49,398 bases of DNA from Reclinomonas americana ATCC 50394 (lineage: Eukaryota), in contig PS015060.1 of assembly GCA_048213135.1 (NCBI GenBank), positions 57,835-107,232 of the forward strand. The letters are read 5' to 3'. This document shows positions 1 through 41,058 of this stretch, piece by piece. Every line of letters starts with the position of its first letter. The stretch's first letter is position 1. The notes under the pieces are model-generated. The model did not search any database. It saw only the letters and a list, made by a program, of their open reading frames with translations, and was not told where the DNA came from. A program made the position numbers and the translations under genes.

Positions 1-81
1 CCCTCTTCCCTCTCCCTCTCTCTCTCCCTCTCCCTCTCCTTTCCACGCTTACCTCTTTCCGCCTCTCTCCTCATACGCCAG

Positions 82-3000
82 GTGTTGGAGACCATTAGCT
101 CGTGCGGCTTCGAGGCCGACGTGGTGGAGGAACGCGGCGATGTCCCGGCGCTGGAATTCGGCGTCACCGGCATGAAATGCGAGAGCTGCGTGGGGAAGAT
201 TGAGCGTGGTGTCGGCGCGCTTCCCGGCGTGTTGTCGGTGCGTGTGGACCTGGCCGGCGGCACTGTCACCGTGTGGGGTTCGGTGGCCGCGGAAGTCGTG
301 TATCAGGCTGTGCGGGAACTGGGCTTTTTGATTCGCGGCGTCGATGAGGAGAAGAGTTGCGCACGCCGTCTATTGTCTTTTTTCACTCGCGCCTTTTGCC
401 TCACGTCTTCCCTGCCGCAGCCACCGAGAGATTTGAGTTGATTGTGCGCGGACTGACGGACGAGAAAAAAGCGGCGAGTGTGGAATGCTCGATTGCATTC
501 ACCGACGGTGTCGATGAGGTGACCGTGGACCGCAACTCGGGGCGAGTGACTGTGCTCGGTCGAGTTGCATTCTCGTCGGTGAGCGCGCTTGTCTCCATGT
601 CTCATTCCTTGTCAACCGTGGCTGACGTAGGAGCGGCAGATTGAGGAGCATTTGAAGGCAGCCGGCGTGGAGATTGTGTCGGGCGCACCGTCTTCATTAT
701 CTTCATCTCCATCATCTGCTGCTGCTGCTGCCCCCGCTGCCTATGGCGCCGTGATGGTTGTATCTGCGATTGAGGGCATGAAGTGCAACGGTTGCGTCGG
801 CAAGGCCACGCGCGCCATCTCGGCCATTCCCGGTGTACAGAGTGTGGTGGTGGACCTGGCGAGCAAGACGGCGACGATCAACACGTCGTCACCGGTCAGC
901 AAGACTGCCGTGGTTGAGGCACTGACCGCCGTCAACCTGCGTGTGGTCGAGCCGAGCGGCAGCGACGGCCAGCCGGCGTCGGCCTTGTCGCCCACGGCAG
1001 CCGCCTCTTCTCCATCGTCAGTGATGGTCGTATCTTCCATCGAGGGCATGAAGTGCAACGGTTGCGTCGGCAAGGCTACGCGCGCCATCTCGGCCATTCC
1101 CGGTGTACAGAGTGTGACGGTAGACCTGGCGAGCAAGACGGCGACCATCAACACGTCGGCACCGGTCAGCAAAACTGCCGTGGTTGAGGCACTGACCGCC
1201 GTCAACCTGCGTGTGGTCGAGCCGAGCGGCAGCGACGGCCAGCCGGCGTCGGCCTTGTCGCCCACGGCAGCCGCCTCTTCTCCATCGTCAGTGATGGTCG
1301 TATCTTCCATTGAAGGCATGAAGTGCAACGGCTGCGTCGGCAAGGCCACGCGCGCCATCTCGGCCATTCCCGGCGTGCAGAGTGTGGTGGTGGACCTGGC
1401 GAGCAAGACGGCGACGATCAACACGTCGGCACCGGTCAGCAAGACTGCCGTGGTTGAGGCACTGACCGCCGTCAACCTGCGTGTGGTCGAGCCGAGCGGC
1501 AGCGACTTGTCGCCGCCCGCGCCATCGCGGCCGCCGGTCCCCGTGGCCACCGACGCTGGCCCGACGTTGCCGCTGGTGATCACCGGCATTGAGGGCATGA
1601 AGTGCCAGAGCTGTGTGGGCAAGATTACTCGCGCCCTCGCGGCTGTGCCAGGTGTCGTTGGTGCGGCAGTGGATTTGCAAGCCAAGACAGCCACCGTGAA
1701 TGGAGCCGCCTCTCTGTCGCTGTTGCATGATGCCATTCGTGCCGCTGGCTTTAAGATTCGCGCTCTCGACGTCATTCCCGGTTGCGTCCCTCCTCCCTTT
1801 GCAGTCCTAATTGCATCTATGAATGTGTCTGTGTTCTCACCCCTCTTTCCCCTTCTCGCAGACATGACCAAGTTCACCCTGTTTGTGCCGTCGCTGACGT
1901 CGCGGCAGGTGGCCACGGAGCTCGAGTGGGCGCTGACATCGTTGGATGGAGTCGACGAGGCTGTTGTCGACATTGACACGTCGCTGGTGACGGTGACGGG
2001 TCGTGTGCTGCTTCCGTGGGTCCACGAGTGCATCCAGCAGCACGGACTGACGGTGGAGACGCGCACACTGACGGTGCCCATTGAGGGCATGCGCTGCGTC
2101 AACGGCTGCGCCAACAAGATTCAGCAGGCACTGGCCAAGTTGGTTGGCGTCGTCGAGGCTGCCGTCGACTTTGAGCACAAGGTGGCATTGGTGCGCGGCG
2201 ACGGTGTCGACTTGGAGACTGTGCGCGACACGATTCGGCGACTCGGATTCAAGGTGGCCGACGTCGATGTGCCTGAAGGTGCGACATTGTGCAATCTTTC
2301 GCCCCTTTGTTTACCTCTTCTCATCAGCCATGGGTGTGTGCTCAGAAATGTCCCGACACGTGGTCGCCGTGGACGGCCTGCGGTGCGAGAAGCGCGACGC
2401 TCTCAAGTTGGAGCGCGAGCTGTCGTACATCCCGGGAGTCACCGACGCCCACGTGAACTTCACCAACAAGACGGCCACGGTGTGCGGCCATGTGACTCGC
2501 GACGATGTTGTGGCGTGTGTCGTGCGCGCGGGATACGTGGCAGCCGATGCCGCGTCGGCGCAGCGTGACATGCGCTTCTCGCTGCGTGGTCTGCTCACCA
2601 GCGACGTGTCGAAGAATCTGCTGTGGGCCATTCAGTGCCTCGACGGCATCACCCTCGTTACGATTGACGACGCCGCGTGTACCGTGCGTGTCGTCGGCAC
2701 GGCGGAAGCGGAAGCCGTGCAGAGGTGCATTCGTGAGCACGGTCTCGACGTGCAAGATGTGCAAGGTGCGTTTTCTGCGATCTCTTTGTCTCTCTCTCTC
2801 TCTCGCGCGCTCCTACCTCCGAAACCTCACCACCACTTGCGCAGTGACGACTGCGAAGCCGGCCAATGTGACTCCCGGCTCACCGGGCGCATCGCTGTCT
2901 CCATCGTCGTCCTCATCGTCACCGCCGCGAAGCAATGCTCGGCAGTACGTAATCCCAATTGTCGGCATGCGGTGCGAGCAGTCGTGTGCACGGCTGCTGG

Positions 3001-6000
3001 CACGTGCGCTGTCGGCGTTGAAGGGCGTCAGCCATGCGTCTGTCGACTTTACCACGAAGCAAGCCACGGTGATTGCCACGTGTACGGAGGACGACTTGCA
3101 TCGCGTGATTGCACAGCAAGGATTCGGAGTCGGCGAAGACACTTCAGTGGCCAGCACGGCGCCGACCACCAAGCGTTTCGTCCCCACCCTTCACCATTCG
3201 CACCCACCACAGATTGTGCTCATCCTTTGTCGTGACGGCTGCAGGTCGTGACCGAGAGCTGACACTGGAGCTTGAAGGACTGCGGCCGACCTCTGTGCCG
3301 CTGGTGGAGAAGCGGTTGCGAGACATTCCCGGAGTGTTGAGCGTGCGCGTCGTTGCGTACTGCTTGTTGGCCCTTGTCTACTCGGTGCCTGCAGGTTGCC
3401 TGACTTGACTTGCACAGGATCCGTTGCGGCGATATGTGGTTGTGCGGAGTGCGGCCGACGGAGAGTTGCTGGATGTACGACTGCTCTCCGATGTGATTGT
3501 GGCGTCCCAGCGTGGAGTGCGCGTGCGCGTGGCCATGCAGTCGCTGGCCACCCCCATTTCGACTCTTGGGCTGGCGGCGTCTCCGATTTCGCCAAGTGCG
3601 TACATCTCTCTCTATCTCTCTTTCTTTCTTACTCATTTTCTTCCTTATGTGTTTCTCTCTTTCTTTGTCTGTCTCCCTCTTTCTCTCTGTGTGTATCTCT
3701 CTTTCTTTCGCTGATTCTCATCCCTTTTCCTCATCGTTGCAGCTGGCGAATCCACCGGCAGCAATGTCAGCCTGGCCTCCACCACGCTGGCGTATTCGTC
3801 GACCGACGAAGACGACACTGGCAACGTGTCGCTGCTAAGTGGCAAGCATGTGTCGAAACGGCAATTCCGACGCGACGGGCAGCGCCGGAAGCGCGGAGAG
3901 CTGCAAAAGTACTTGGAGACGCACGAGGGTCCTGCGGTGGCCGTGGAAAACGTTCCAGAGTCAGGCACAGGTCGCTGGGTGTTTGAGGTGATGGGCATGA
4001 CGTGTGCGTCGTGCGTCGGCAACATCACCAGTGCCGTGCGCGAGATTCCCGGTGTCTCCTCGGTGGACGTCAATCTCATCACGCAAAAGGCGACCATTCA
4101 AGGCGAGACCATGATGCTGTCCACGAAGCGGCTGGACGAAGCCATTCGTGAGCTCGGCTATCATCCGCGGGTGATTATGGAGCCGTCAGACAGGGTATGC
4201 GCCTTGCTTTTTTTTGTGACTCCCTTTGTATTTCCACTCTTCCTTCTCATTCTGTGATATAGAAACCCTCGGACGACTCGTATCTGTTCCAGGTCGAGGG
4301 CATGACGTGCTCGTCGTGTGTGAGTGCCGTCGAGCACGCATTGTACTCGGTTGCCGGCGTGTCACGTGCCTCGGTCAACTTTGCCACCAGTCGAGCCAAG
4401 GTGGACCTGCGTTCGCCGGGGGCCACCGATGTCAAGTCGTTGATTGCAGTTGCGTTTGTGTTTTTGAGTATGTTTTGCTTTTTTCTCTGTCGTCGTGCTC
4501 ACCGCACGCATCGCAGGCGATTCAAGGCGCTGGGTTTTCCGCCAAGCAAATCGTGCGCACCAAGGCCATGGCGAGTGGCACGGAAGCGCGGTCCACATTA
4601 CTCCGTGAAGACGAGACACGCAAGTGGTGGCGACTGTTCAAGCTATCGTTGATATTCACTGTGCCGCTGCTGATTGTGTCGATGGTGTTGATGGAGTGGC
4701 ATCTCATGATGACAATGGTGCGCATGACATGCTTTTGCCCTGTCTCGTAGCATTTCTGCTCGTCTCTCAACTCCTATGTGTGTGTGTGTGCGCGCGCAGA
4801 TCATTGGAGGACTGACAGTGTCGCACTTGCTGCAACTGCTATTGTCATCGCCGGTGCATTTCTACTGCGGCCTGAGTTTCCACATTGGCGCCTACAAAGC
4901 ACTGCGACGCGGCAAAGCCAACATGGATGTGTTGGTGTCGCTGGGCACGAATGCAGCGTACCTCTACTCGCTCTTTGCTGTCGGCTACATGATGCTCTAT
5001 CCGGGTCAACAAGGTAATTGCTTTGTTTGTCGTCTGCGTCTTGCCTTGTCTAATTTTCCTGCTCACTCATACACATGAACACAGAGGGCGTGTTCTTTGA
5101 GACGTCGGCCGTGCTAATCATGTTCCTCACCCTCGGCAAGTTCCTGGAGAGCTTCGCCAAGGGCCGCACGTCGTCAGCGCTGCTGAAGCTGATGGAGCTG
5201 AATGCCGACACGGCTGTGGTTGTCGAGCTCGACGAGCACGGGCAGGTGACGTCGGAGAGGCAGGTGGATGCTGACGATGTCCTGCCGGGCGACATGGTCA
5301 AGGTGGTGCCGGGCGACAAGGTGCCGGTGGATGGCGTCGTGATTAGCGGCCTGTCGTCGGTCAACGAGTCCATGATCACGGGCGAGAGTGCACCGGTGGC
5401 CAAGGGTCCCGGCGACAAGGTGGTCGGTGGCACCGTGAACGGCGAGGGCGTCATGTTTGTGCGCTGCAGCAAGGTCGGCGCCGACTCGACACTCGGCCAG
5501 ATCGTGCGTCTCATCGAGGACGCCCAGACGTCGCAGGCGCCTGTGCAGCGTCTGGCCGACACCATTTCGTCGTGGTTTGTGCCGGTGAGTGACTTGAGTG
5601 CGCGAATGAGATTGCTCCGATGGTGATGAAAGCTGACAAGGTGGATGTATGGCAATACAGGTGGTGGCTGCTGTGGCGGTGGTGACATTTTTGGTGTGGT
5701 TTGTGCTCGGTGTGATGGATGCGTACCCGGCGCGATGGCGCGAGGAAGGTTTGTGCATGTGTGTATGAATTCTGGTGACGGTGGCGTGTGCGCAGCAATA
5801 CTCACTCGTCGTTTGCATGCAGGCATGAACTCGTTCCTGTTTGCTCTGCTGTGCGCCATTTCGGTGCTGGTCGTGGCCTGCCCGTGTGCACTTGGTCTCG
5901 CCACGCCGACGGCGGTGATGGTGGGCACTGGAGTCGGCGCCGAAATGGGCATTCTCATCAAGGGCGGCGAGGCGCTGGAGACCTTCCACCAGACCACCGC

Positions 6001-7869
6001 CATCATCTTTGACAAGACCGGAACATTAACACTCGGCAAGTTCCAAGTGCGCGAGGTCAAGACCTTTGTGCCCGACCGCGTCAACATGCGAGAAGTGCTG
6101 TCGCTGGCCTCGTCGGCGGAGAGCACCAGTGAGGTGAGTGTGCGAAGGGAGAAGGAGGGCGGGGGGGAGGAGGAGGGCATGTTTCTCATTTTTTATTGTT
6201 GGTGACATGCAGCATCCGATTGCCAAGGCGATTGTGGAGCACGCGCAGACTCTGTCGGTGCCCGTGTACACTCCGGGCGAATTCCGCGCGGTGCCTGGTC
6301 GCGGCATCTCCGCCATGTTGACGGAGCGGGCGCACATTGTGCAGCACTTGTGGGAGGCCGGCGTGGACAAGGTTCGGGAAAAGGGGGAAGGGGGAGGGGA
6401 AGGGGAAGGGGGTGGGGGGAGGGGAGGGGAGGGGAGGGGGAAGGGGGAGGGAAAGGGAAGGGAGGGGAGGGGAAGGGGGTGCAGGGCAGGGTCACTCCTC
6501 TCGTCTTTCTCTCTCTCTCCCTCTCTCTCCCTCTCTCTCTCTCTCTCTGTCTCTCTTTACTCTCGGTGGTGTTGCTGGCGGTGGTGTTGCTGGCGGTGGT
6601 GTTGCTGAGCAGCCGGTAACACCACCCAAGAAGAGCACGACTACCACTACTCGCTGAGACCGATGACACACAGCCGCATGTTGTCGACAGAGTGAAATGA
6701 GCGCAGCACAGAGAGAGAACGAGATGAGAACGACGCCGGACTTCGCGCTATGGTCCTGCACGTGTGTGTTTGTTGGCGGCTGTCGTCTGAGGCACCGCTC
6801 TCTGCCTCTTTCTCCCTCTTGCTCACTCCGTCTTTCCCTCCTCTCTCCCTCTCTCCCTCTCTACCTCTTTCATTCTATACTTCTTTCTCCCTTTCCCTCT
6901 TTCCCTCTCTACCTCTTTCCTTGTTTCCTTCTTCCTCTCTCTCCCTCTTTCCCTCTTCCCCTCCCTCCTCTCTTCCCTCTCTCTCTCCCTCCCTCTTTCA
7001 CTCCCTCCCTCCCTTCCGCCATCTCTCACTCTCCTTGCTGATTTACTCACCCCTGTATTCCCCCCTGCAGCGCACCCTGGTGGGCAGCCTTGCCTTTTTG
7101 GCCGACAACAACATTCCGATCAGCGGTCAGATGCGTGCGTTCATCGAGGAGGCGGAGCGTCGCGGCATGACTGTCGTTGCGTGCTGCTCACCATTCGTCA
7201 GTCTGTTCTCCGTCCATTCCCACTCACTCTCTGTCCCTCATTTAGGTGGCCGTCACTCTTGGCGACGCGCTGGTGGGCGCCATTTGCTTGGCCGACACGC
7301 CTCGCCCGGAGGCCCGTGGCACCATTGCCGCGCTGCGTGCCTCTGGCGTGCAGTGCTACATGGTCACTGGTGACCAGCCGTACGCCGCACAAATGGTGGC
7401 CGAGCACGTGGGCATTCCGCCGGCCAATGTGTTCGCCTCACGCCTGCCCGGCGACAAGACGGAGCGCGTGCAGGCGCTGCAGATGGAGGGCCACAAGGTC
7501 GCCGTCATTGGCGACGGCGTCAACGATGCACCGGCTCTGGTGCAGGCCGACGTGGGCGTGGCGGTCGGCTGCGGCACCGATGTGGCACTGGAGAGCGCCA
7601 AGGTGGTGCTGGTGAAGAACGATTTGCGCGACGTGCTCACCGCGCTCGATCTGGCGCGCACCACTTTCCGTCGCATCAAGCTCAACTACATTTGGGCTCT
7701 CGGCTACAACGTGCTGGCCATCCCGCTGGCCACCGGCATGTTCTTCCCGCTGATGGAGGTGCGCATGCCGCCGATTGTGGCCGGCGGTGCCATGATTATG
7801 AGCTCTCTCTCGGTGCTCGTGTCGTCGCTGCTGCTGCGGTGGTACAAGAAGCCGAGTGTCGCGCTCTGA
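82..7869 (+). CDS. ATP7: P1B-1 copper-transporting P-type ATPase (ATP7A/B, CCC2-like), multi-exon, 5' end lies upstream of the window
   Basis: Spliced product contains GMxCxxC HMA domains, [20 protein letters not shown] (about 5378), [10 protein letters not shown] (about 5878), DKTGT (6011), SEHP across intron 6134-6212, TGD, GDGVND, YN and MSSLSV; stop TGA at 7867-7869. The first exon in the window follows an acceptor ending at 81. Confidence 0.95.
751..1506 (+). repeat. 270-bp coding tandem repeat, about 2.8 near-identical copies, each encoding one HMA domain plus linker
   Basis: Units begin at 751, 1021 and 1291 (gtgatggtYgtatct...ggcatgaagtgcaacgg) and differ by only a few bases. Confidence 0.95.
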
Positions 7870-8620
7870 GAAAAGGGAAAGGGAGAGAAGGGAGAAAGGA
7901 TGTTAATGAAGAAAATCAATTTGCTTACGGTGCTTGGCGAGGGGAAAGGAGGGGAGTGGGAGGAGGAGTAGAAGGGAGAGAAAGTGGTGCGGGCGGAGAA
8001 GTTGATGAAAAACAAACAATGAGTTTGCTTGCTCCGAGCGAACACACACACGCGCACACGCAAGAAACCTGCTACTGCCTCGAGACTGCAACTTGGTCAT
8101 CAAGACAGCTGTTGCCAGCTTGTTGGTGAATGAATTGTCGAGCTGCGCGAAGTGAGCAAGAAGAAACGGAAAAGGAGAAACAAGAAAGAGAATGATTTTG
8201 ATGCAGATCTCAGTGCGCATTGTGCTACTGGCAGGAAGTCGAACGTGGGGAAGAAAACAATGCGTCCCCGTGTCCTGCTTCATCAAATCAACGAACTTGA
8301 ACGGTGAGATGTGGGAAGAGGCCACTCGACGCACGTCCACACTGTGCCTCTCTGTGCATAGTCACATGCACGAGCTCTGTCTCTTCCTGTTCCGCACATG
8401 CATGTGTTGCAAGAGTGTGTGTGAGTGTGTGTGCGCCATTTTTTCGCGCTCACACGCACACACACTCTGCACTTTGTCTGTGTGTTTGTTTGTGTGTGTG
8501 TTTGAGTCTCATGTTGCACTCTGCACATGTGATGTTTGCTTTCCATGTGCTCGATTTGGGATTGACATGTCTACTCACAACTTACCTCATTCACTCGCCC
8601 ACGCAGAGTAAAGAGAGAGC

Positions 8621-11600
8621 ATGTCAGCTGCCGCACCCGCCGCATCATCTGCTGGAGCAGCAGCAGCAGCAGCGCCTGCAAAGGCCACACCCGCAGGTTT
8701 GCAAGACGAAGAGAGAGAGAGAGAGGGAGAGGGAGAGAGACAGAGGAGAAGAAGAAGATAACGTGACGCCTGAAGCAGTCTAGGTGTCATCTTGCGCACA
8801 GCAGTGCGAAGAATGCATGCCAGAGTGAGCAGCTGAGGAGGGAGAAGAAGACAGCGAGGTGAGCGGCTGGAGCAGTATAGGATTACAAACTGCGAAAGAC
8901 TGCGATCAACGAGTGTGATCATGCAGAGGAGAGAGAGAAGGGAGCAGCTGAGGGCGATAAGTGATGAACACATGCTCAGTGATCTTGCGCAAGGAGAGAT
9001 ATGGAAGCTCAACGACGCTCTCTGCACACTATCCAAGTCTGTGGCGTCCCAGCTGTTACAAGGACTCTTCATCTTCTCCTACCGTTCTGTCACAATCGCC
9101 GTTTGCATGTGCTCTTCACATTGACGCGTCGCTTCGTCGTCTTCCGCTTTCCTTTCTCGACTCTTCTTCTTCTCCTACCGTTCTGTCACAATCGCCGTTT
9201 GCATGTGCTCTTCACATTGACGCGTCGCTTCGTCGTCTTCCGCTTTCCTTTCTCTCTCTCTCTCATTGTTGCTTGATCACACTCGTTGAGCAAGGAAGCC
9301 ACCTGAGTCGTCCTTGACTGCTTCATGCACATCTTTGTCCTCGTCCTCTTCTTTTCCTTATCCATTCTCCCTTCTCACTGAGCTTCTTCCATCACGGCAG
9401 CCACGGAGGGAGCTTCATCGTCGGCCGCTGCACCGCCGGCTGCCGATGACGAGGTGGCTGGATTGGCGGATCGTGTGGCGGCGACCAAGCTGGATGCTGA
9501 GGAGCAGACAGAGGTGCCGCGTGCACTCTTCAATCGGGAGCAGTACATTCAGCGAGTGGATTTGCTGCAGCACAACCCCGAGAGCCCACTGTTCTCGGCG
9601 AAAGCTTTTGATGATCCCGCGCTGCGCATGTTTCGTGGTCGCCACTGTCGCTGTTGGTCGTGGTTGTGGTCGTGGTGGTCATCTCTCACGCGTTGTTCTC
9701 GAGCAGCAAGCCGGAGATTCTGCGTGGTATCTTTGAGGTGAAGCAGTACAGACTGCCGTCGAAGATTCAGGAGGCCACACTGCCGCTGGTGCTCTGCGAT
9801 GCACCGTGCGTAGACTTGCCTCATCATCATGATGGTGTCATCTCGCGCTGAAATCCATCTTTTCCATTTCCATGTGGTATACAGTCGAGTGGGTCTCATT
9901 GGACAGGCGCCAACGGGAACGGGCAAGAGCTTGTGTTTCATCACGGCTATGCTGCAGCGATGTGATCCGACCAAGGAGGTGCCGCAGGCGCTGTGCTTGT
10001 GCCCCACACGCGAACTGGCACGCATGCACGCAGTGGAGGTGCAGGAGGTCGGCAGATTCACCGGCCTCAAGGTGCGACAGGCGACACCGGGTGGCGACAG
10101 TTGAGTGCTGGGGATGGGAAATGACGGCAACGATGATGATGATGATGAGACGTGCTGACTGTGTGGGTGACGACGGTCTGCAGCGAGCCAGGTGACGCAG
10201 CAGATTGTGGTCGGCACGCCCGGCACGATTCTCAATCTCGTGCAAGAGCGCAAGTTGAATCTGCGCAATCTGCAAGTGTGGGTGATTGACGAGGCCGATC
10301 ACATGATGGAGCAATTCCGCGAGGATACCGATAATCTCAAGAAGTGAGTGGGAGGAGAAGGGGAGAGATGAGGGAGAAGGAGAGGGGTGTATGTGCTGTC
10401 CTCTCGCAATGTCTTCACAAATCTTTTTCTCTCCATTCTGATCTGACACTTGCTCCCTTTCCTCGCAACCCCCTGCAGGAAGATTCCACCGGGCACCCAA
10501 GTGCTTCTCTTCTCGGCCACATTTGCGGAGAACCCGGATCTGCAAAAGTTTGCCGTGTCCCTGGTCGGCAAGGACGCCAACATTGTGAAGGTGCAGGAGT
10601 CGGAGTCTGCCACGTCGAGCACAGTGGTGCACTTTGAGCTGGATTGCGGCAGCCCGGCCAATCGGCTTCAGGCGTTCAGCAAGCTGTACCCGAAGTTGCC
10701 GGCGGGCAAGACCATTGTGTTTGTCAACGTTGCGTCTTTGATTTGGAAATGGAGGGTGCATTGTGCAACAGGCAAAACTCACCACCACGGTACAACACAG
10801 ACACGAAAGGGAGCCGAGGAAGTTGGCCTTGCGATTCACGACACGTGCGGGCTCACCACGGCGGTGTTGACAGGAGGTGTGTGTGTGTGGTGAAGGGAGG
10901 GAGGGAGGGAGAGAGCGTGGAGAAGGAAGGAAGGGAAAGGGAATACTGTGAAGATGGAAGAACAATCAGGAAGAAAGCACAATGAGTGAGTGAGAGAGCG
11001 TCTGAGAGAGAGAGGAAGGAGGAGGACAATTGGATAAGCGAGAGAGAGATATTGTGACACTGTTCGCCTTCGTGATCCGCGAATCTCACTCGCATTTTCT
11101 CTGGCGACACACAGCTCGTGACCCCAGCCAACGTGACGTGGTGGTGGATCAGTTCCGCTCCGGCACGCACTCAGTACTCGTAGCCACCGATGTTTTGGCT
11201 CGTGGTTTTGATGAGCTGGAGGTGAGAATGGAAGTACAAGGGGCATGCCAGTGTGTGCTTGTTACGTATTCACTGGATGTGTCACCAGACGACGGCGGTA
11301 ATTAACTGGGACGTACCATCGGCACAACACAACGGCAAGGACATGGCGCAAGTGGTGTACCAGCATCGCGCTGGTCGCTGCGGACGCTTTGGCAATCGGG
11401 GAGCTTGTGTCACGTTCATTGTCGATCGGTTGTCGCGTGAGACATGGACTCGTTGCGTTGGGGGGAGAAGGGAGAGATTGGGAGAGAAGAAGGGAGCGTG
11501 CTATCTCGTATCGTTTCTGCGCGCGTGTCTCTCTGCCAACCTGTTTCTCCTTCGTCCTCTTGTTTCTCCTCCCAAAGCGTGTTCTTCTTTTCACCTCGAT

Positions 11601-18660: not shown

Positions 18661-19960
<1,300 letters not shown>

Positions 19961-20142
19961 CTTTGGTCACCTTCCTCTTCTTCCCTCACCCTCCTCCTCT
20001 TCCGCAGCTCATCATTGTGATTCGCGCAATCTGGTTCCCCACGACTGCGGCCACTGTCGACGTGCGACAAGTGATGAAGGGCGAGAAGCCAGTGATGGAG
20101 AAACTCGAGTGAAATAGTTGTGTGTTCTTCTTCGTCTCTTTA

Positions 20143-23100
20143 TCACGCAGGCGGCCACAGCTTGGTGAGTGCTCTCCGAGAGGTTTTCTCGGGCATCAGC
20201 TCGGCCAGCTCCTTGAAGAGGAACATGTTCTCGTCGGTGGTGCTCCATACGGTCTCGAGTGCGCGGCGGCTGTCAATGTGGCGCTCGAGCAGGCTGCGTA
20301 CGAGCGAGCATCGTGGTGTGAAGCGAAACAGTGGCTGTGGAACGGTAAGGTGAGTGAGAGGGCGTGGGGGAGGAGCGAGTGAGGCAGGCGCGCAACTGCG
20401 AGTGGTGCGAGGTTGGCAAACACGCGGCCTTCGACAATGGCGCGGGCAAACTCGCGACAGCGTACGGTTTCGTCGGGGCACGGCACGGGAACGGCAGGGA
20501 GCTCCCATTTGTCGACACCAAAGTAGGGTTGGGCGATTGACACCACCTCGTCGCGCTCCGTGTCGTATCTGCAATTGGTGCGGGCGAGTGAGGCGCAAGG
20601 GAACGACAACGCTCACTCGACGATGCACTCTCTCTAGATATTCTCTTCTGACCCTCTCGCCATCGCCCTTTGCCCCTCCTCTCGTCCCTTGACATTTTCG
20701 CTTCACCTCCTCCTCTCCTCTCCTCTCCTCTCCTCTCCTCTCCTCTCCTCTCCTCTCCTCTCCTCTCCTCTCCTCTCCTCTCCTCTCCTCTCCTTCCCCT
20801 CTCTGTTCTCCTTATCCTCCTTCTCTTCATCTCTAACCTCACCTCTCCTCTCCTCTCCCCTCCTCTCCTCTCCTCTCCTCTCCTCTCCTCTCCTCTCCTC
20901 TCCTCTCCTCTCCTCTCCTCTCCTCTCCTCTCCTCTCCTCCCTCTCCCTCCCTCCCTCCCTCCCTCCCTCCCTCCTCTCNNNNNNNNNNNNNNNNNNNNN
21001 NNNNNNNNNNNNNNNNNNNNNNNNNNNNNNNNNNNNNNNNNNNNNNNNNNNNNNNNNNNNNNNNNNNNNNNNNNNNNNNNNNNNNNNNNNNNNNNNNNNN
21101 NNNNNNNNNNNNNNNNNNNNNNNNNNNNNNNNNNNNNNNNNNNNNNNNNNNNNNNNNNNNNNNNNNNNNNNNNNNNNNNNNNNNNNNNNNNNNNNNNNNN
21201 NNNNNNNNNNNNNNNNNNNNNNNNNNNNNNNNNNNNNNNNNNNNNNNNNNNNNNNNNNNNNNNNNNNNNNNNNNNNNNNNNNNNNNNNNNNNNNNNNNNN
21301 NNNNNNNNNNNNNNNNNNNNNNNNNNNNNNNNNNNNNNNNNNNNNNNNNNNNNNNNNNNNNNNNNNNNNNNNNNNNNNNNNNNNNNNNNNNNNNNNNNNT
21401 TTCCCCTTTCCCCTTTCCCCTTTCCCCTTTCCCCTTCCCCCTTTCCCCTTTCCCCTTCCCCTTCCCTCCCTTCCTCTCCCTCCCCCTTTCCCCCACTCCC
21501 CCTCTTCGCACGCAACGACGGCGGAACATCCTCCGACCCCTTCATGCGCGAACACATGGCTTCGCCGAGCTCCACCAGCCACGCAGGCTTGATCTCCGTC
21601 ACCCCTCGCATGGTGGTCGTGCGCTGTCCACGCACCAGCTGCTGGAAGCACACGAAGTCGGGTCGCTGGGCGCCCACGAAACTCTCCGGGTGAACGTACA
21701 CGGGTCCCTTGTGGCCGAGCGCAAAGTACGGCATCCGAACCAACCTGAATGCTGCTCCCAGCCAAACACACAGAGGTGAGGAATGTCTGCCGTGACAACA
21801 AGACGGGGGATTGGCGACGCACTTGAGTTGGCGGCCTTCATCGCCGCGATTTCATCGGCAGTCGCTCGCCGCGCCACTTGATCAACAAAGCCAGCACACA
21901 AAACCTACGAGTGAAGACCATAAGTCTCGTGCAGCCGTGTCAACACACTTCCGCATGACTCCTCACCTGCCGCAAGAACAACTCATCGAACGCCGAGGGG
22001 GGCTTCATGGCCTCGCCGATAATGCCCACCGACGCCTCTACCGACTCCTCCTTCAGCGAACTGGCCAGCTGCTCTCGCAGGCGTCGGATTTCGCGCATCG
22101 ACTACACCATGCCGAACTCAGTGCCGATGCGCAATAAACAACGCACATGCGCACACGCAAACCTTCTCAATGAGTCCGTGCTCCTCGCAAAACTGACTCC
22201 GCTGGTGCTCTGGTGTGTGATCGTAGGCCCCTACGGCACGCAGCGCAGCAAGCAAGTCCGATCGCGGGTGCGCCCACATCTGTGATTCACACGAGTCGAT
22301 TAGTACCAGTTTCTATCCATCTACCACAATTCCTGATTGTTAGCGCATGCTTCTCACTGAGACTGCTCACAGAAAAACAAGGTTCCGCCGCACAACGAAG
22401 AGACTACTCATTGAAAAGAAGAGGCTCCACACTGAGAACGAATTGGCGTCTCACTATTTCAGAAGAAGCACGTCACTGAATGCAATGCAGCTTCTCACAC
22501 AGAATGGAGCTCGTGTTGAGAAACGCGTCTCGTACAGTGAAACGTGTCACGCAGAATAAACAGGCTTCTCACAGACTCAGAAACTGCTTGGCAAAAGTTC
22601 TCACTAATGGAGACGAGGCTGACTTCAGAGAACGACAACGCTGCGAGGTATGCGTATGCGACTGACGAGGTTCCTCAGCGAGAGCGCGGAAAACAAGGCG
22701 CGCGCATGCCCATCACCACCGCTGCACTAATGATGTGTTTCTTCCACTTTCTCTCGTCGCTCTTCCACCTCGTCCCTCTAGTCACCTCGCCCTATCTCAC
22801 TTTCCCCTTTCCCCCTTTCCCCCTTTCCCCTCTTCTCCCTTCCCCCTTCTCCCTTCCCCTTCCCCTTCTCCCTCCCCCTTCCCCTTCCCCTTCCCCTTTA
22901 CCCTTCCCCCTTCCCCCTTCCCCCTTCCCCCTTCCCCCCTTCCCCCCTTCGCACCACCCGCATCGCCTGCAGCTCCTTGGCCCGCTTGCCCAGCTTGCTG
23001 ACTGGCTTCTTGACAAACGCGGAGCCCGACGACGACGCCAGCGCCACCTCCTCCGCCGTGCCTTCTTCGTCCGCGCCATCTTCTTCGTCCTCGCCCTCCA

Positions 23101-28145: not shown

Positions 28146-31100
28146 ATGTCACCACCGTTTGACATCTCTCACTCACGTGCTCGACTCGTCGCTGTGCGCC
28201 TCCTCGCCACACTCACGCTCATCATCTTGTTGGTGAACTCCATCTGCAGCGCAAGTTGTGTTTGCGTGCTTGCGTGTGTGTGTGTGCGCGCTCTCTTGCA
28301 CTGCAGCGAGTGTTGTTAAGCGACGCAATTATTAAGCTGCCTCTTACTTGTGTGCCACTAACTACATATATCGCAGACGCCCAGACAGTCACCACCGCTG
28401 TCGCCAACAACATCACTGGCTTGTCCGCCACTCTCAACGCGTGGGTCAATCCCAACAATGTCGCAGGGGGCACCACCAACTCTTTCGAGTGGTCTCCGTA
28501 CGCCACCGCCGTTGGTGTCTCTTCGGCCACTGTCGCCACCTTAGTGGGCACTGCAGCCTCGTCAGGAACGACCGACGGAGTCGGAGCAAGTGCGCGATTC
28601 AACACGCCAATGGTGAATCAAGACGTCTTGCCGATCATGAAACTTGCCTTATGTTGTATGCTAACGCGGCGGGGTGTGCTCTCTCGACAGGGACTGGTCT
28701 TCGATGCAGCAGGCAACGTGTATGTGGGCGATTACGGGTTTGTCATACTTGCGCTCTTTCCTCCAATCCATCCGTCGATTGTTGTGCTTCTTGCTCTGTC
28801 TCTCACTCGTGGATGCTGGCAGCAACTGTCGCATTCGACGCATCACCGCTGCAGCCACAGTGACCACTTTCGCGGGCACCACTTGCGGCCTGTTAGATGC
28901 CACAGGAGTGTCTGCCAAGTTCAAAAAGTGTGTTGTCTTCTCTCTGCTTGTCTCTCGCACACTCACTCACGCACTCTCACAGTGTTGCCGGCCTCGCCAT
29001 TGACCAAACCACGGGAACGATGTATGTCGCCGATGTGAGTGTGTACAGGCATGCATGATCACGTGTGATGCAGGCACGCATTCTCACTCCGACTCTGTGC
29101 GTCTCTCTCCCATAGTTGACAAACCACGCTGTGCGTGCCGTCACCACTGGAGCAGCTGTCACCACACTGGCAGGCAATGGGGCGTCGGGGAGTGCCAATG
29201 CCTCGGGTGCAGCGGCCTCCTTCAATCAGCCTGCCTCGGTGGCGGTGGACGCCACAAACCAGGTGGTATATGTGGGCGACTGGCTCAACAACACTGTGCG
29301 GCGAGTGACCTACGCCGGTGCGGTGACGACCTTCTGTGGCACTGCGGGCATGAGTGGCACTGCCGATGGTGCGTGTGCGGGGGCGGCGCGATTCGGTGGT
29401 CCCAACGGCGTGCTGCTCGTCGGATCCACACTGTATGTTGGTGAGCGTTGTGTGGGAGCGAGAGAAAGATGCCATTACTCCCGTTCTCATCCTCCCTTCC
29501 TGCTTGTGCGTGAGTGCAGCCGACCGCGTGAACAACTCCATCCGGGCGATTGACACGGTGGCGATGACGGTGACGACGGTGGCAGGTTCAACGAGCGGTG
29601 CATCTGGATCCACGGATGGCACCGGTAAGTCCACCACGTGCACCTCTGCGTGATCGATTGCGTGGGGGTGTTCATCGATGTTCATGTATCAGGAACGGCT
29701 GCCCGCTTCAACACGCCCATTGGACTGGCATATGACGCAGGAAATAACGTCATCTATGTTGCCGATGTTGAGTATCGTCCCACTCACTCCGTACCATGTA
29801 CGCCTTCGCCGCTTCTTGATCCTGACTGCCTTGTACCGGACGCAGTCTGTCAACAACACCGTGCGGCAACTCAGTGTGTCAGACTCGTCAGTGACAACGC
29901 TTGGCGGCGCGGCGGGTGTGAGTGGTTCAGCCGATGGCAGTGCACTGACCGTGGCACGCTTCAACTCCCCTGTCCACCTCGCGTTCGATGCATCGACTGC
30001 ATCGGTGCTGGTTGTCGATTACACCACGCACATCATCCGTCGCCTCTCGCTGGCGTCACTAACAGTGTCGGCCACACCCGCCACCGCCACTGGCTCTGCC
30101 GCCACTTCCATCACCGCCTCGCTGACTGGGTTGGCAAGCAACTGGACGTTCTACTATCGCGCCGTTGGTATCATCTCCACACCCAGCACCGTCAATGGCG
30201 CCACCGTGTCCTTCACCACCGCCACCAATGTGGCTCCCACCGATATTAGCTGCTCGTCGACGACGTATGTGTCGCCTTCGGTGGCAAATCAAGTCGTATG
30301 TGCGCTGCAGACGACGGATGCCAACACGGGCCAGTCGTTTACGTACTCAATCATCGGTGGCGCCAACAGCGCGGTGTTTTCGATCAGCGGACAATCGCTG
30401 GTGATTGTGGCGGCGGGGCAGGCGGGCAGCTCGCTGGCGGTGACGATCCGATCGACGGACAATGGATCGCCGCCGCTTTTCTTCGACAAGGCGTTCACGA
30501 TCACCACGGGTGAGGCAATGATAGTGTCTCTCTGTCGCGCTCTCTCTCTTTCTTCTCCTTCTTCATGTCTACCACCATTATTCTCTTCTTCTTCCATTTC
30601 TTCCTCTTTGACTCCTACTCTTCCTCACTTATCCCTTCCTGCCGCTGAATACTTCCCCTTTCTTGTGCCACAGCCACCCAGTCGCTGGCCACGCTGTCGG
30701 CCAGCAATGTGACGACGTCGTCAGTGACATTGAATGCTGTGGTGGGCAACTCTGTTGCGGCCTCCACAATGAGCAACTCGTTCGCGTGGGCGCCGACGGC
30801 AGCGGCTCTTGGTGTGACGCCAGCCGTGTCGACATGGTTGGGGACAGCGGGCATGGCTGGCTCGACAGATGGCACAGGCGCTGCTGCGCTTTTCAGCTCA
30901 CCGGTGGTGAGTGTTCCGTCCAGTGATCGCCCACAATGCGCCTTTGACTCAGCAGAAGAATGCAGAGCATCGCATTTGATGCCTCCGGGACGGCATATGT
31001 GTGTGACCAATCCAACCGCACTATTCGGCGAGTGACAAGTGGAGGTGTGGTGACGACGTTTCTGGGAACTGCCACCACCGTTGGGGCCTTTGTTGATGGC

Positions 31101-34100
31101 GTTGGCCCCGCTGTGCGGTTTAAAACTCTCACTGGCTTGTCGATCGATCAGACCACCGGCTACTTGTACATTTCTGACGTTGCGTTGTCGAGCGTGTTAT
31201 TCTTGGCAAGTGCGTCGCCACTCTCACATCAAAAAAAAACCACGAACTGTAGGGCAACAACCACGCAGTTCGTGTGAGCACGCCTTCCGGCTCCGTGTCA
31301 ACGCTGGCTGGCAACGGATCGTCCGGCACTACGAATGGTACCGGATCGAGCGCGAGGTTCAACTATACACACGGCAATGCGGTTGACGCGTCGAACAAAG
31401 TGCTGTATGTTAGCGACAGGAGCAATTCGGCAATCAGGAAGGTGTGTGTGCGCGCATCGGCACTTGTTGATGTTGCGTCGGTGTACTCATACCACGTCCT
31501 CGCACAACACAGGTTACTTATGGTGGTGAAGTCACCACCTTCTGTGGCACGATGGCAACAGCCGGTGCAGTAGATGGAGCGTGCGCTACAGCACAGTTTT
31601 CTGTGCCTTGCGGCGTGGCCTTGGATACGTTAGCCAATCGGCTGTACATTGGTATGTGTGCCCTGTACAATCTTGGTCACAAAACGCGATCTCACGCATG
31701 GCGATCTGCAGTTGATAACACTCGCCACAACATTCGTGCAATCGACATGGTGGCGATGACTGTGTCGACTCTTGCTGGCTCTGTGACCGCGACAACAGGG
31801 TCGACTGATGCTACTGGTACTCTGGCCCTGTTCAGCTACCCTGTCGGCATCCAGCTCGATCGAGCGCGTGGCGTTCTTTATGTTTCTGATGTTGAGTGAT
31901 TGGGTGATTGAGTGTTTCGTTTTTGGCACCTCATTTAGCGCGACTCTCAAAGGCGGGCAATGCTACTATTCGTCAAATCATCGTCAGCACGGGTGCCGTT
32001 ACAACCATTGCGGGTACTCTGGGTGTCACTGGATCGACCGATGGGAATCCGCTCACCAATGCGAAGTTCTATGGCCCGGTTCGCACTGTCATGTTCTGCG
32101 ACTGCAGCATTTCTTCCTGGGGAGCTCACTTGTGAGTGCAGCATCTTTTTGCGTACGATGCCCCCTCGTCCACTCTCTACATTCCAGGTGCGAGTTTTTC
32201 CAACAGTGTTTGACGTCGGTGAGCTTATTCTTTGTCACCATTCCTCAGATTACTACAGCAACACTATCCGCCGACTTACCATCGGCTCCACCACCGTCAC
32301 GGCCACCCCGGCCACCTCTGGCGTCGCCTCCAGCACCGCCCTGACCGCGTCACTGACTTCGCTCGCCGCCAACTCGACATACTACTTCCGTGCCATCTCC
32401 ACCTCCACTGTGCCCAGCACTCTCACCGGCTCCACCGTGTCCTTCACAACTTCCAATTCGACGCCGACCGACGTCGTCTGCTCTACCTTATCCTACGTCG
32501 CACCGTCGACGGCCAACGTACCAGTGTGCACGATGAGCACCAGTGATAGTGATGGCGGCCAGTCGTACACGTACGTTGTCACTGGTGGAGCGAATGGGAG
32601 TGCGTTTTCTGCGAGCGCTGGCGCACAGCTACAGATCACCTCGGCGGGACAGACGGGGAGTCCACTGGTCGTCACGATTCGCTCGTTCGACAATGGCACT
32701 CCGGCGATGTTCGTCGACAAGACACTCAGTGTGACGGCGGGTGAGTGAGATGTGTTGTGCACGAATGGGGAACATTGAAGGTACTCATTGCCTTCTTGCC
32801 TGCACGCAGTGCCCACTGTGACGTCGTTGTCGGCCACTTTCGTTTCTGCACTGGCTGGCCAGTTGGTGACCCTGACAGGATACGGGTTGCTCGACAACTC
32901 GGCCGACGCCTCGGCGTATGTGTTGGCCTCTCCCCTGTGCGGCGCCACGACACCGCCGACGGCCGTGGCCAGCACCAGCATCAGCAGTGCATTCGGCAGT
33001 GTGAACAGCATTACGTTGACGATTGGGGCGGCGGGTGCAGCAGGTGGCACGTACGAGCTGTGTACGCGATGGACGTCAGCTAGCACGTATGTGGCAGTGT
33101 CGGCTTTTGCCATTGGTGAGTGAGGATAATGCAGGGAGAACTCTGCCTGTGTTTGATCGCGTGCTTGCTTGTTTGTTTGCGTGTGTGTGTGTAGAATTGT
33201 ACTCGTTTCCTTCTTCTTCTTCCTCTTCTTCTTGTTCACTGTTTGTCTCTCTCAGTGTGCGTGCGTGCGTGCGTGCGTGTATGCGTGTATCTGCTGACCA
33301 GAGTGTGTGTGCAGGGAGTGTTGGTCCGAGTGACATTCTGCTGTCGGGTCCGCAGACGTACTCGAGTACGACGGTGCCATTCACCGTGGGCACACTGAGC
33401 ATGGTGGATCTCAACACGGGACAGACGCCGACATTCAGCATTGTGGGTGGTGTACACGCGGCTCTGTTCAGCATCGTGGGTGGCAACCAGCTGACAATCT
33501 CGGTGGCTCCGCCGCTGTATCGGCGATTGCAAGTGTTTGTGCAAGTGAGCGACGGGGCGTTGACGTACACCAAGCAGTTCACGATTGTGTATGGTGCGCC
33601 ATGGGGAAAAAAGGCGGCGGTAGGGTGTGCAGAGAAAGAGAAAACGGAAGCAGCAGATCTGTGTGATTATTGTCGCCCTCCACTCAGAGAAACGAGAATA
33701 TGGGGCGATGAGGGGAAGGAGACTAGAAAACCGGAGCAGCAGATCTTTAATGCCTTTTGTCGCCCTCTTTCCCCTCTACCTGGGACTTGAACATGTGACT
33801 GGTACTGACACTGATACATGTGATTTGTACAGCCTGGAGTGCAGGTTGTTCGACAGTGCAGAATGGAGTTGTGGCTCGTTGCGTTGGTGTCAACTCAGAT
33901 GTGTCGTACTGTCGGCCGTCTCATCTCCGTCACGACGAACAGCCGCCTTGGAAGTGTGCCTTTTCGAGGCAGTGGATCGACCTGGCGGCACAACGTTGGC
34001 GGCGATGCCCTCTGTTGTGAGCGAAGTCGGGTGTTGCGAACTGTGCGACCTGTACCCGCTGTGTCGATCGTGGACATTTCTTGATGCCGCGGCGGCGTCG

Positions 34101-41024: not shown

Positions 41025-41058
<34 letters not shown>

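What the first reader, a model, noticed from the sequence alone, without database searches (positions are those of the whole stretch)
82..4560. Copper ATPase with at least 14 tandem heavy-metal-associated domains
Hand-splicing gives 14 complete HMA-like units in the window plus the tail of another at 82-120, and the gene continues upstream. Human ATP7A/B have six and yeast Ccc2 has two. An N-terminus this large suggests a built-in copper buffer or an unusual regulatory or trafficking arm.
Basis: partly seen in the sequence, partly recalled or inferred. Interest (0 to 1): 0.75.

Follow-up and report, generated by a model that had tools for sequence, protein, structure and literature searches.

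The report
Copper pump with fourteen-plus metal-binding-type domains
An intron-rich gene of an unidentified protist encodes an otherwise ordinary copper-exporting pump whose front end carries at least 14 copies of the small copper-chaperone-like domain (humans have six), about a third of which have lost their copper-binding cysteines, making it the longest such chain I could find in any database searched.

Summary
Window 82-7869 (+) is one GT-AG gene of 18 exons, open at its 5' end. It gives 1954 codons without a stop.

The C-terminal 720 residues are a complete P1B-1 Cu(I) ATPase. TGES, CPC, DKTGT, SEHP, GDGVND and the copper-type YN and MxxSS membrane motifs are all present.

The N-terminal 1233 residues hold 14 HMA-fold units plus the tail of a fifteenth at 82-129.
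- Pfam HMA finds 13 of them exon by exon.
- The fourteenth (unit 12) is split by an intron. It is seen only weakly, by my own profiles on the spliced product.
- 7 units keep CxxC and 2 carry a CxxxC variant also found in other eukaryotes.
- 5 units lack the cysteine pair. Four of these five model confidently as the HMA fold.

In a profile search of 1.84 billion protein representatives, the best 150 hits have at most 10 HMA stretches. The protein itself is not in that library. The reviews I read give one to six or seven domains.

The arm's function is inferred, most likely a regulatory or copper-sensing arm as in ATP7A/B. No RNA data were available, the organism is unidentified and the gene's start lies outside the window.

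Verdict: real, an extreme variant of a known kind, of moderate interest.

The parts
82..7869 (+). Whole gene as far as the window shows it: 18 exons, open at the 5' end, stop TGA at 7867-7869. Exons: 82-355, 421-578, 640-1780, 1862-2278, 2346-2765, 2845-3174, 3245-3351, 3418-3595, 3743-4194, 4263-4448, 4517-4717, 4800-5013, 5085-5584, 5661-5748, 5823-6133, 6213-6371, 7071-7175, 7246-7869.
   Evidence: all 17 introns are GT..AG and the frame stays open for 1954 codons; residues 1067-1950 align in a single BLASTP segment (41.6% identity, 898 columns) with a plant HMA5-type ATPase (P0001), across nine exon junctions.
82..129 (+). Tail (last helix and strand) of a further HMA unit (unit 0). The rest of it lies upstream of the window.
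   Evidence: Read from the translation. The outside HMA profile matches its positions 56-67 here at i-E 0.23, which is not significant on its own.
148..342 (+). Unit 1, canonical HMA with GMKCESC.
   Evidence: Pfam HMA 2.9e-15 for this exon; CxxC at residue 33.
426..681 (+). Unit 2, HMA-like without the cysteine pair, split by the intron at 579-639. An alternative in-frame acceptor at 630 would add 3 residues.
   Evidence: Pfam HMA 7.6e-06 (26.7 bits) on its first exon alone. 13.9 bits, i-E 3.1e-6, with the outside profile on the spliced product.
748..1491 (+). Units 3, 4 and 5 (748-951, 1018-1221, 1288-1491). They are near-identical canonical HMAs (GMKCNGC) with 22-residue Ser/Pro/Ala linkers, forming a 270-bp tandem duplication inside one exon.
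   Evidence: TRF: 751-1506, period 270, 2.8 copies, 95% matches. Protein identity 95-98%. Codons that differ between copies over 72 codons, synonymous/non-synonymous: 6/4, 5/3 and 9/1.
1564..1770 (+). Unit 6, canonical HMA (GMKCQSC).
   Evidence: One of the 4 Pfam stretches in exon 640-1780; 66.3 bits with the outside profile.
1870..2058 (+). Unit 7, HMA fold without cysteines. It is 6 residues after unit 6 and 2 residues before unit 8.
   Evidence: One of 2 Pfam HMA stretches in exon 1862-2278. The AlphaFold2 model of that exon has mean pLDDT 90.3; unit 7 shows strand-helix-strand-strand-helix, with no clear final strand in the DSSP output.
2065..2262 (+). Unit 8, HMA with a one-residue-longer site, GMRCVNGC (CxxxC).
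   Evidence: The same CxxxC spacing occurs in 77 of 597 HMA segments, in 28 of the 150 best library proteins.
2357..2548 (+). Unit 9, HMA fold with the CxxxC-type spacing but only the first cysteine (GLRCEKRD).
   Evidence: Pfam (2 stretches in exon 2346-2765). [quoted passage not shown] Foldseek gives ATP7B and CopA N-terminal domains as top matches.
2570..2755 (+). Unit 10, HMA fold without the cysteine pair.
   Evidence: Second Pfam stretch of exon 2346-2765. Second ferredoxin-like domain of the model. Only 8.2 bits with the outside profile.
2943..3134 (+). Unit 11, HMA with GMRCEQSC (CxxxC).
   Evidence: Pfam 4.3e-10; CxxxC at residue 847.
3256..3534 (+). Unit 12, probable HMA-like unit without cysteines, split by the intron at 3352-3417. 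This is the weakest of the 14.
   Evidence: No Pfam hit on either half-exon. On the spliced product: i-E 1.6e-5 (11.2 bits) with the window-unit profile, which does not contain it, and 1.3e-4 (8.7 bits) with the outside profile. It could not be folded because it is spliced.
3535..3975 (+). 98-residue low-complexity linker with a basic cluster. It is interrupted by the 147-nt intron at 3596-3742 and separates the distal arm from the two membrane-proximal units.
   Evidence: linker list; 47% Ser/Thr/Pro/Gly/Ala; no Met in it.
3976..4173 (+). Unit 13, canonical HMA (GMTCASC).
   Evidence: Pfam 8.4e-17 over profile positions 1-62 of 62.
4281..4552 (+). Unit 14, canonical HMA (GMTCSSC), split by the intron at 4449-4516. 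Its last strand shares exon 4517-4717 with the first membrane helix.
   Evidence: Pfam 2.1e-13 on its first exon. 69.4 bits over profile positions 3-67 across the junction.
4553..7869 (+). P1B-1 ATPase core: membrane helices, then the A, P and N domains. Intron 16 (6372-7070, 699 nt) is made of G-rich and CT-rich simple repeats.
   Evidence: Pfam E1-E2_ATPase 1.7e-36 and Hydrolase 1.3e-17. NCBIfam TIGR01511 (copper-translocating) scores 179, 121, 215 and 32 bits on four exons. Motifs. PDB best match is rice HMA4 8q75, 8.3e-59.

Best explanation
Shown: this is a single nuclear gene for a Cu(I)-exporting P1B-1 ATPase. Its cytosolic N-terminus is a chain of at least 14 Atx1/HMA-fold modules, 15 if the truncated one is counted, and there may be more upstream.

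Inferred mechanism:
- Units 13 and 14 are canonical and lie next to the membrane. They are 13 residues apart and about 30 residues from the first membrane helix. I take them to do the job of MBD5-6 of ATP7A/B or the two domains of yeast Ccc2: they take Cu(I) from an Atx1-type chaperone and gate its entry into the CPC/YN/MxxSS transport site.
- A 98-residue flexible linker ties them to a distal arm (units 0-12).
- In that arm, seven two-cysteine modules (1, 3, 4, 5, 6, 8, 11) alternate with five cysteine-poor modules (2, 7, 9, 10, 12). Each cysteine-poor module sits 2 to 17 residues from its neighbour.
- The arm most likely works as an enlarged version of the regulatory MBD1-4 region of ATP7B. 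When empty of copper it restrains the pump. Graded copper loading of its sites releases it, and perhaps redirects the protein in the cell.
- The cysteine-less modules would then be structural partners or docking surfaces rather than metal sites, as proposed for the degenerate MBD3 of plant RAN1.

The array grew by internal duplication. That growth is recent and under purifying selection for units 3-5.

The confidence of 0.6 is for the whole statement. I put the shown part (one gene, a copper pump, at least 14 HMA-fold units) at about 0.9 and the regulatory-arm mechanism at about 0.4.
For: One gene:
- The reading frame is unbroken over 18 GT-AG exons.
- Unit 14 and the first membrane helix share an exon.
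- There is no Met between the acceptor at 3742 and the first strand of unit 13.
- Residues 1067-1950 align in one segment with plant HMA5-type ATPases: 41.6% over 898 columns for P0001 and 42.3% over 896 for P0004.

Copper pump:
- Regex finds TGES, CPC, DKTGT, SEHP, MVTGD, GDGVND, Nx6YNx4P and Px6Mx2SS.
- CPC, YN and M..SS are stated to be characteristic of copper IB-1 pumps in PMC3922081 (passage).
- TIGR01511 is the best or second-best NCBIfam model on all four core exons scanned.

HMA units: as set out in the observation check.

Fold of cysteine-poor units:
- Its best PDB matches are ATP7B 7si3 (E 6.2e-8) and the two-domain N-terminus of B. subtilis CopA, 2rml (E 1.2e-7). 31 matches have E <= 0.001.
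- The model of units 7+8 has pLDDT 90.3.

CxxxC is a natural HMA variant:
- It occurs in 77 of 597 segments, in 28 of 150 proteins.
- Of the ten proteins looked up, those that carry it and have a named member come from Bremia, Pythium, Ascophyllum and Paratrimastix.

Selection on the youngest copies: synonymous/non-synonymous codon differences are 6/4, 5/3 and 9/1.

Regulatory reading, from established knowledge rather than tests here:
- MBD1-4 of ATP7B are auto-inhibitory and MBD5-6 are needed for transport (PMC3308323, passages).
- RAN1 MBD3 lacks the cysteines, keeps the fold and is proposed to be a regulator or anchor (PMC12586476, passages).
Against: - There is no transcript evidence of any kind. 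The splicing is a model.
- The 5' end, the start codon and any further units are outside the window.
- Units 10 and 12 are weak by the outside profile (about 8 bits each). Unit 12 has no Pfam hit and could not be folded.
- Units 3-5 are 95-98% identical, so their number could be an assembly error in either direction.
- Nothing here tests copper binding, auto-inhibition or trafficking.
- The ATP7B analogy rests on position and linker lengths only. The pump core is nearer to plant HMA5-type pumps than to ATP7A/B.
- The same genome is reported in earlier notes to hold other very long domain arrays, so the expansion could be largely neutral.
Confidence: 0.6

Rival explanations
1. The arm is a built-in copper buffer or sink. 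Many Cu(I) sites on the pump would store or hand on copper stoichiometrically.
For: At least 9 two-cysteine sites lie on one chain. The recently duplicated units 3-5 are all canonical binders and are kept under purifying selection.
Against: 5 of the 14 units have lost the site, which a selected buffer would not be expected to tolerate. A handful of sites per membrane-pump molecule adds little capacity compared with soluble chaperones or thiol pools; this is an inference, not a test.
Confidence: 0.15
2. The expansion is largely neutral. In a genome prone to tandem domain arrays, duplicated HMA modules accumulate and then decay. The cysteine-less units would be relics, with no function beyond what two or three domains provide.
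For: There is an ongoing in-exon tandem duplication. Five units have lost the metal site.
Against: The cysteine-less units are still recognisable by Pfam, and the four I could model did so at pLDDT of about 90, so the fold has been kept. No frameshift or stop occurs in 1233 N-terminal codons. Synonymous differences outnumber non-synonymous ones in the young copies.
Confidence: 0.2
3. Gene-model artefact: two genes. One would be a soluble multi-HMA protein ending near 3595-3714. The other would be an ordinary two-HMA ATPase starting in exon 3743-4194.
For: The longest short intron (147 nt) and the 98-residue linker lie exactly here. If intron 8 were retained, the upstream frame would stop at 3712-3714. 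Multi-HMA proteins without an ATPase part exist among the library hits, for example P0126 and P0139, although these may be fragments.
Against: There is no Met in the frame of exon 3743-4194 before the first strand of unit 13. The donor at 3596 and the acceptor at 3742 are in matching phase. 147 nt leaves no room for a terminator, promoter and untranslated regions; that last point is an inference.
Confidence: 0.07
4. A cassette system. Exons 4, 5 and 6, and the pairs 2+3 and 7+8, are symmetric in phase (1-1) with lengths divisible by three. Exon skipping could therefore give isoforms with different numbers of HMA units.
For: Exon lengths are 417, 420 and 330 nt, and 158+1141 and 107+178 nt for the pairs; all are multiples of three. 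Intron 3 (81 nt) is in frame and free of stops.
Against: Phase symmetry is also what duplication of whole modules leaves behind. There are no RNA data.
Confidence: 0.1

Closest known systems
Human ATP7A / ATP7B (Menkes and Wilson copper ATPases)
   Same: A P1B-1 core with CPC, DKTGT and SEHP. It has a chain of HMA domains, with two canonical domains close together next to the membrane behind a long flexible linker, and distal domains beyond it. ATP7B structures 7si3 and 7xuk match the C-terminal exon at 8.7e-52 and 1.5e-50, and 7si3 is the top structural match of the unit 9+10 model.
   Different: ATP7A/B have six domains, all with CxxC (PMC3308323 and PMC11970713, passages). Here there are at least 14, of which 5 lack the pair and 2 have CxxxC. 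The trafficking signals of ATP7A/B were not looked for.
Plant HMA5 / HMA7 (RAN1) type copper ATPases and rice HMA4 (PDB 8q73-8q76)
   Same: These are the nearest by sequence in the pump core. Identity is 60% over the A-domain exon to a Dioscorea protein and 41.6% over 898 columns. The best PDB hit is rice HMA4, 8.3e-59. RAN1 also carries a cysteine-less HMA-fold domain, MBD3 (PMC12586476, passages).
   Different: The plant pumps have 3 HMA-fold domains (one search counted 3 in each of the seven plant and green-algal hits printed). In RAN1 the degenerate domain is the one next to the membrane; here the two next to the membrane are canonical.
P0121, an unnamed 1636-residue Cu-ATPase from a 17.4-kb NCBI contig: the longest HMA array found in the library
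   Same: A P1B ATPase with a long run of tandem HMA units. My profile finds 10 stretches, Pfam finds 9, and 9 pass i-E < 1e-3. By eye, a cysteine-less HMA-like stretch follows its last canonical unit.
   Different: Its units are near-identical copies, nearly all canonical, and number 9-10 rather than 14 or more. Its core is 36.6% identical to this one, so it is not a close relative.
Cu-ATPases with 7-8 HMA units in Mucoromycota (Umbelopsis, Apophysomyces, Pilaira), a chytrid (Terramyces), the starfish Patiria and the abalone Haliotis
   Same: Natural expansions beyond six domains. Pfam stretches: 8 in P0136 and 7 in P0127, P0137, P0141, P0143, P0163 and P0168.
   Different: About half the number found here. 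I did not examine whether any of their units lack the cysteines.

Membership tests
P1B-1 (Cu+/Ag+) P-type ATPase | P-type catalytic motifs: DKTGT phosphorylation site, TGES in the A domain, GDGxND hinge | tested here: met
   DKTGT at residue 1619, TGES at 1458, GDGVND at 1836, MVTGD at 1786 of the spliced product. Pfam E1-E2_ATPase 1.7e-36 and Hydrolase 1.3e-17.
P1B-1 (Cu+/Ag+) P-type ATPase | Copper-type membrane site: CPC in TM6, YN in TM7, M..SS in TM8 (PMC3922081, passage seen) | tested here: met
   CPC at 1575; an N-x6-YN-x4-P match at 1894; a P-x6-M-x2-SS match at 1923. The longer spaced patterns are recalled from Arguello 2003, which I did not read.
P1B-1 (Cu+/Ag+) P-type ATPase | Score above the curated cut-off of NCBIfam TIGR01511 (397 bits for a whole protein) | tested here: inconclusive
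   Only single exons could be scanned. They gave 179.2, 120.8, 214.8 and 32.3 bits. Each is below the cut-off alone; a rough sum is 547 bits. The general heavy-metal model TIGR01525 scores about the same.
P1B-1 (Cu+/Ag+) P-type ATPase | Eight membrane helices (two extra helices before the usual six) | tested here: inconclusive
   A simple hydropathy scan gives hydrophobic windows at 1259-1303, 1362-1380, 1516-1550, 1555-1590 and 1921-1944, plus one at 1744-1765 that lies in the cytosolic part. It does not resolve all eight helices. Reading the sequence by eye suggests eight.
HMA domain (Pfam PF00403) | Match to the Pfam model above the gathering score | tested here: met
   13 stretches in 8 exons, all exon scores above 24.8 bits. 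Unit 12 could not be tested this way because it is split by an intron.
HMA domain (Pfam PF00403) | [quoted passage not shown] | tested here: met
   Tested for units 7-10 only. Models have pLDDT 90.3 and 91.8 with the expected order of elements. PDB matches are ATP7B, CopA, CopZ, Atx1 and CCS domains. In unit 7 the final strand is a single residue in the DSSP string, and in unit 8 it is only two residues.
HMA domain (Pfam PF00403) | GMxCxxC metal-binding loop | tested here: not met
   Met in 7 of 14 units (1, 3, 4, 5, 6, 13, 14). Units 8 and 11 have CxxxC. Unit 9 has one Cys. Units 2, 7, 10 and 12 have none at the site. So five units are HMA-fold domains but not canonical metal-binding domains.
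ATP7A/B-type regulatory N-terminus | Copper-dependent auto-inhibition and trafficking mediated by the distal domains | not testable with these tools
   It needs biochemistry or cell biology. Only the layout (a proximal pair, a long linker, a distal arm) resembles it.

The most novel reading that the evidence does not exclude
The arm is not just 'more of the same'. It would be a patterned chain in which copper-binding modules are paired with cysteine-less partner modules, with linkers of 2-17 residues between them. Such a chain could act as a multi-step copper-counting switch or relay, giving the pump a steep, tunable response to cytosolic copper. In-frame cassette exons could additionally let the cell vary the number of steps. 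That would be a new regulatory design for a P-type ATPase.
Probability: 0.15. Interest if true: 0.7.

Novelty: new variant of a known kind. Interest (0 to 1): 0.5.

Why it matters
Why copper pumps of complex organisms carry several metal-binding domains, and what the distal ones do, is still debated. The reviews I read describe a range of one or two in prokaryotes up to six in humans, with seven in amphioxus. They link the number to finer regulation.

A natural pump with at least 14 such domains, a third of them without the metal site but with the fold retained, is an extreme test case. It shows that the number is not capped by the pump's mechanics. It also offers ready-made 'binder plus non-binder' pairs for studying interactions between domains.

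It adds the record-holder to a little-noticed set of pumps with 7 to 10 domains in fungi, molluscs, echinoderms and unnamed microbes.

The practical value is limited until the organism is identified and the transcript confirmed.

Tried and rejected
- Whole-genome search: no genome is held for this window, so the upstream part of the gene and any paralogues could not be reached.
- RNA evidence: no RNA holder was listed for 82-6371.
- Relatives of the pump core: a search with the A-domain exon returned 6912 hits. The best was 60% identical. Neither the protein itself nor any close relative appeared, but only proteins of 292-2000 residues were candidates.
- Metagenome contigs: 80 loci were kept, with a best identity of 57%. 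None was close enough to give the upstream region, and they were not used further.
- Earlier notes of the scan: nothing near this place and no note on HMA arrays. The organism is 'unidentified' in all notes seen. I ran no further search on placing it.
- Literature: five searches found no paper describing a P1B ATPase with more than seven HMA domains, and none on CxxxC-type HMA sites in such pumps. The library is limited to open-access papers and preprints.
- Other features in the region: the antisense ORFs (741-2120, 3220-3717, 5050-6192, 6193-6747) gave no Pfam family above cut-off. No Rfam family was found in 1-9000.
- Unit 12 could not be folded or scanned against Pfam because it exists only after splicing.

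Full report
**What is there**

The first 8 kb of the window are about 60% G+C and contain no N. Reading the frames and joining them at GT..AG borders gives one gene of 18 exons, from 82 to a TGA at 7867-7869. It has 5865 coding bases and 1954 codons without a stop.

Sixteen of the 17 introns are 61-147 nt long. Intron 16 is 699 nt of G-rich and CT-rich simple repeats. Five of the 17 donors read GTTGCG. Earlier notes on other pieces of this genome report the same unusual donor class.

The exon at 82 follows a CAG acceptor behind a CT-rich tract and opens in the middle of a domain. So the gene starts upstream of the window.

**The pump**

The C-terminal part is a complete copper pump.
- Pfam finds E1-E2_ATPase (1.7e-36) and the HAD hydrolase domain (1.3e-17) on the relevant exons.
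- NCBIfam's copper-translocating model TIGR01511 is the best or second-best model on the four core exons scanned, with 179, 121, 215 and 32 bits.
- A regex scan of the spliced product finds TGES, CPC, DKTGT, SEHP, MVTGD and GDGVND. It also finds the YN and M..SS membrane motifs, which a review passage names as characteristic of copper IB-1 pumps (PMC3922081).
- Residues 1067-1950 align in one BLASTP segment with plant HMA5-type pumps, at 41.6% identity over 898 columns. That segment runs across nine predicted exon junctions, which is good independent support for the splicing model in this half.
- The nearest solved structures by sequence are rice HMA4 (8q75, 8.3e-59) and human ATP7B (7si3, 8.7e-52).

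**The array**

Of 17 exon translations scanned, 8 carry Pfam HMA, with 13 stretches in all. The missing one, unit 12, is cut by an intron, so neither half scores alone.

On the spliced product I ran two profiles.
- One was built from 11 units of the window itself. It is circular for those 11 but not for units 2, 12 and 14.
- The other was built from 597 HMA segments cut out of the 150 best library proteins.
- Both report the same 14 domains.
- Under the outside profile the strong units score 35-69 bits. Units 2 and 7 score about 14 bits, and units 10 and 12 about 8 bits (i-E about 1e-4).

So 13 units are solid and unit 12 is probable. The 16 residues at 82-129 look like the end of a fifteenth unit.

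**Which units can bind copper**

| Site | Units | Count |
|---|---|---|
| CxxC | 1, 3, 4, 5, 6, 13, 14 | 7 |
| CxxxC (one residue longer) | 8, 11 | 2 |
| First cysteine only, CxxxC spacing | 9 | 1 |
| No cysteine at the site | 2, 7, 10, 12 | 4 |

The CxxxC form is not an oddity of this gene. It occurs in 77 of the 597 outside segments, in 28 of 150 proteins. Among the ten proteins I looked up, CxxxC carriers with a named member come from the oomycetes Bremia and Pythium, the brown alga Ascophyllum and the flagellate Paratrimastix. The outside set was selected with a profile that contains CxxxC units, so that share is probably inflated.

The cysteine-poor units keep the fold.
- AlphaFold2 models of exon 5 (units 9+10) and exon 4 (units 7+8) have mean pLDDT 91.8 and 90.3. 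Each shows two ferredoxin-like domains.

**Layout**

Linkers divide the chain as follows.
- 1-2 is a pair (6 residues apart).
- 3, 4, 5 and 6 are separated by 22-24-residue Ser/Pro/Ala linkers.
- 6-7-8-9-10 form a tight block, with linkers of 6, 2, 9 and 7 residues.
- 11-12 follow, 17 residues apart.
- A 98-residue low-complexity linker with a basic cluster comes next.
- The canonical pair 13-14 (13 residues apart) ends about 30 residues before the first membrane helix.

Each cysteine-poor unit therefore sits directly behind a neighbour with a short linker.

Units 3-5 are a 270-bp tandem inside one exon (2.8 copies, 95% matches). Differences between the copies are mostly synonymous (6/4, 5/3 and 9/1 codons). 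That argues that they are translated and under selection, and that the array is still growing.

Exons 4, 5 and 6, and the exon pairs 2+3 and 7+8, have lengths divisible by three and share phase 1 at both ends. This fits growth by duplication of whole modules. It would also allow in-frame exon skipping.

**One gene or two**

I could not get RNA data. The sequence argues against a split:
- The last strand of unit 14 and the first membrane helix are in the same exon.
- Exon 3743-4194 has no Met before the first strand of unit 13.
- Donor and acceptor phases match at every junction.
- The gaps are of intron size.

I give the two-gene reading about 7%.

**How unusual**

The reviews I read give one or two domains in prokaryotes, two in Dictyostelium and yeast, three in C. 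elegans, four in Drosophila and six in chordates. A predicted seven is mentioned in amphioxus (PMC3308323; PMC11970713; passages only).

A profile of the window's units was scored against all 1.84 billion representatives of about 15 billion predicted proteins. It matched 45,070 proteins at E <= 0.001 and 260 at E <= 1e-30.

Among the best 150, counting stretches with i-E < 1e-3:

| HMA stretches | Proteins |
|---|---|
| 9 | 1 |
| 8 | 1 |
| 7 | 9 |
| 6 | 20 |
| 5 | 48 |
| 4 | 58 |
| 3 | 13 |

The top protein, P0121, has 10 stretches in the tool's own table and 9 by Pfam. Because scores add up over domains, a protein with 14 ordinary HMA units should have topped this list, and none did. The gene's own product is not in the library either.

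The named proteins with 7-8 units come from Mucoromycota, a chytrid, a starfish and abalones. The 120 nearest relatives of the pump core have mostly 2 units (95 of 120) and at most 6; in that search only proteins up to 2000 residues were candidates.

Limits of this claim:
- Only the best 150 were listed.
- Intron-rich eukaryotic genes are often missing or fragmented in such libraries.
- No close relative of this organism is present, so 'common among related protists' remains untested.

**How it probably works**

What is shown is the architecture. What follows is inference from the ATP7A/B and plant literature.
- The membrane-proximal canonical pair probably receives Cu(I) from an Atx1-type chaperone and controls access to the transport site.
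- The distal arm probably acts as an enlarged copper-sensing, auto-inhibitory and perhaps targeting region like MBD1-4 of ATP7B.
- The cysteine-less modules probably serve as partners or docking surfaces, as proposed for the crystallised degenerate MBD3 of Arabidopsis RAN1 (PMC12586476, passages).

A pure buffer role is less likely, because a third of the units have lost the site. A largely neutral expansion cannot be excluded.

**Verdict**

It is an extreme variant of a known kind, not a new kind of system. I rate it of moderate interest (0.5). It is limited by the missing 5' end, the lack of transcript data and the unknown organism.

Noticed in passing
window 356, 1781, 3352, 4449, 7176 (donor sites): 5 of the 17 introns of this gene begin GTTGCG. 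Three more begin GTTTCG, GTTTGT or GTTCGG instead of a GT[AG]AGT-like donor. This matches the unusual donor class reported by earlier notes on other pieces of the same genome.
   Followed up: partly
window 6372-7070: Intron 16 is ten times longer than the others. It consists of a G-rich (GGGGA)n block, a (CT)n block, a 15-bp triplicate and a long CT-rich tract. No Rfam family and no Pfam-bearing ORF were found in it.
   Followed up: partly
window 1781-1861 and 630/639: Intron 3 (81 nt) is in frame and free of stops, so its retention would add 27 residues between units 6 and 7. Intron 2 has two in-frame acceptors 9 nt apart (AG at 629-630 and at 638-639).
   Followed up: no
window 41300-41434 (+): An exon encodes part of a ubiquitin-conjugating enzyme core (Pfam UQ_con, 1.8e-09). 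It lies in a region broken by runs of N.
   Followed up: partly
window 29654-30712, 31939-32748 and 33020-33790 (+): Three long ORFs share repeated Thr/Ser-rich modules and a similar C-terminal block, suggesting paralogous surface-protein-like genes. No Pfam family at E <= 0.001.
   Followed up: partly
window 45168-46937 (+): A 589-codon open frame is rich in (Ser-His)n and Pro/Ser runs, in a 66-69% G+C stretch. No Pfam family was found. It may be a low-complexity protein or non-coding.
   Followed up: partly
window about 18900-21500, 40900-41700 and 44250: Runs of N (1130 in the window) are flanked by long homopolymer-like and dinucleotide repeats. The assembly is fragmentary here.
   Followed up: no
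P0121 (library protein): This unnamed 1636-residue Cu-ATPase has 9 near-identical canonical HMA units. By eye, one cysteine-less HMA-like stretch lies just before the membrane part. It is the longest array found outside this window and apparently undescribed.
   Followed up: partly
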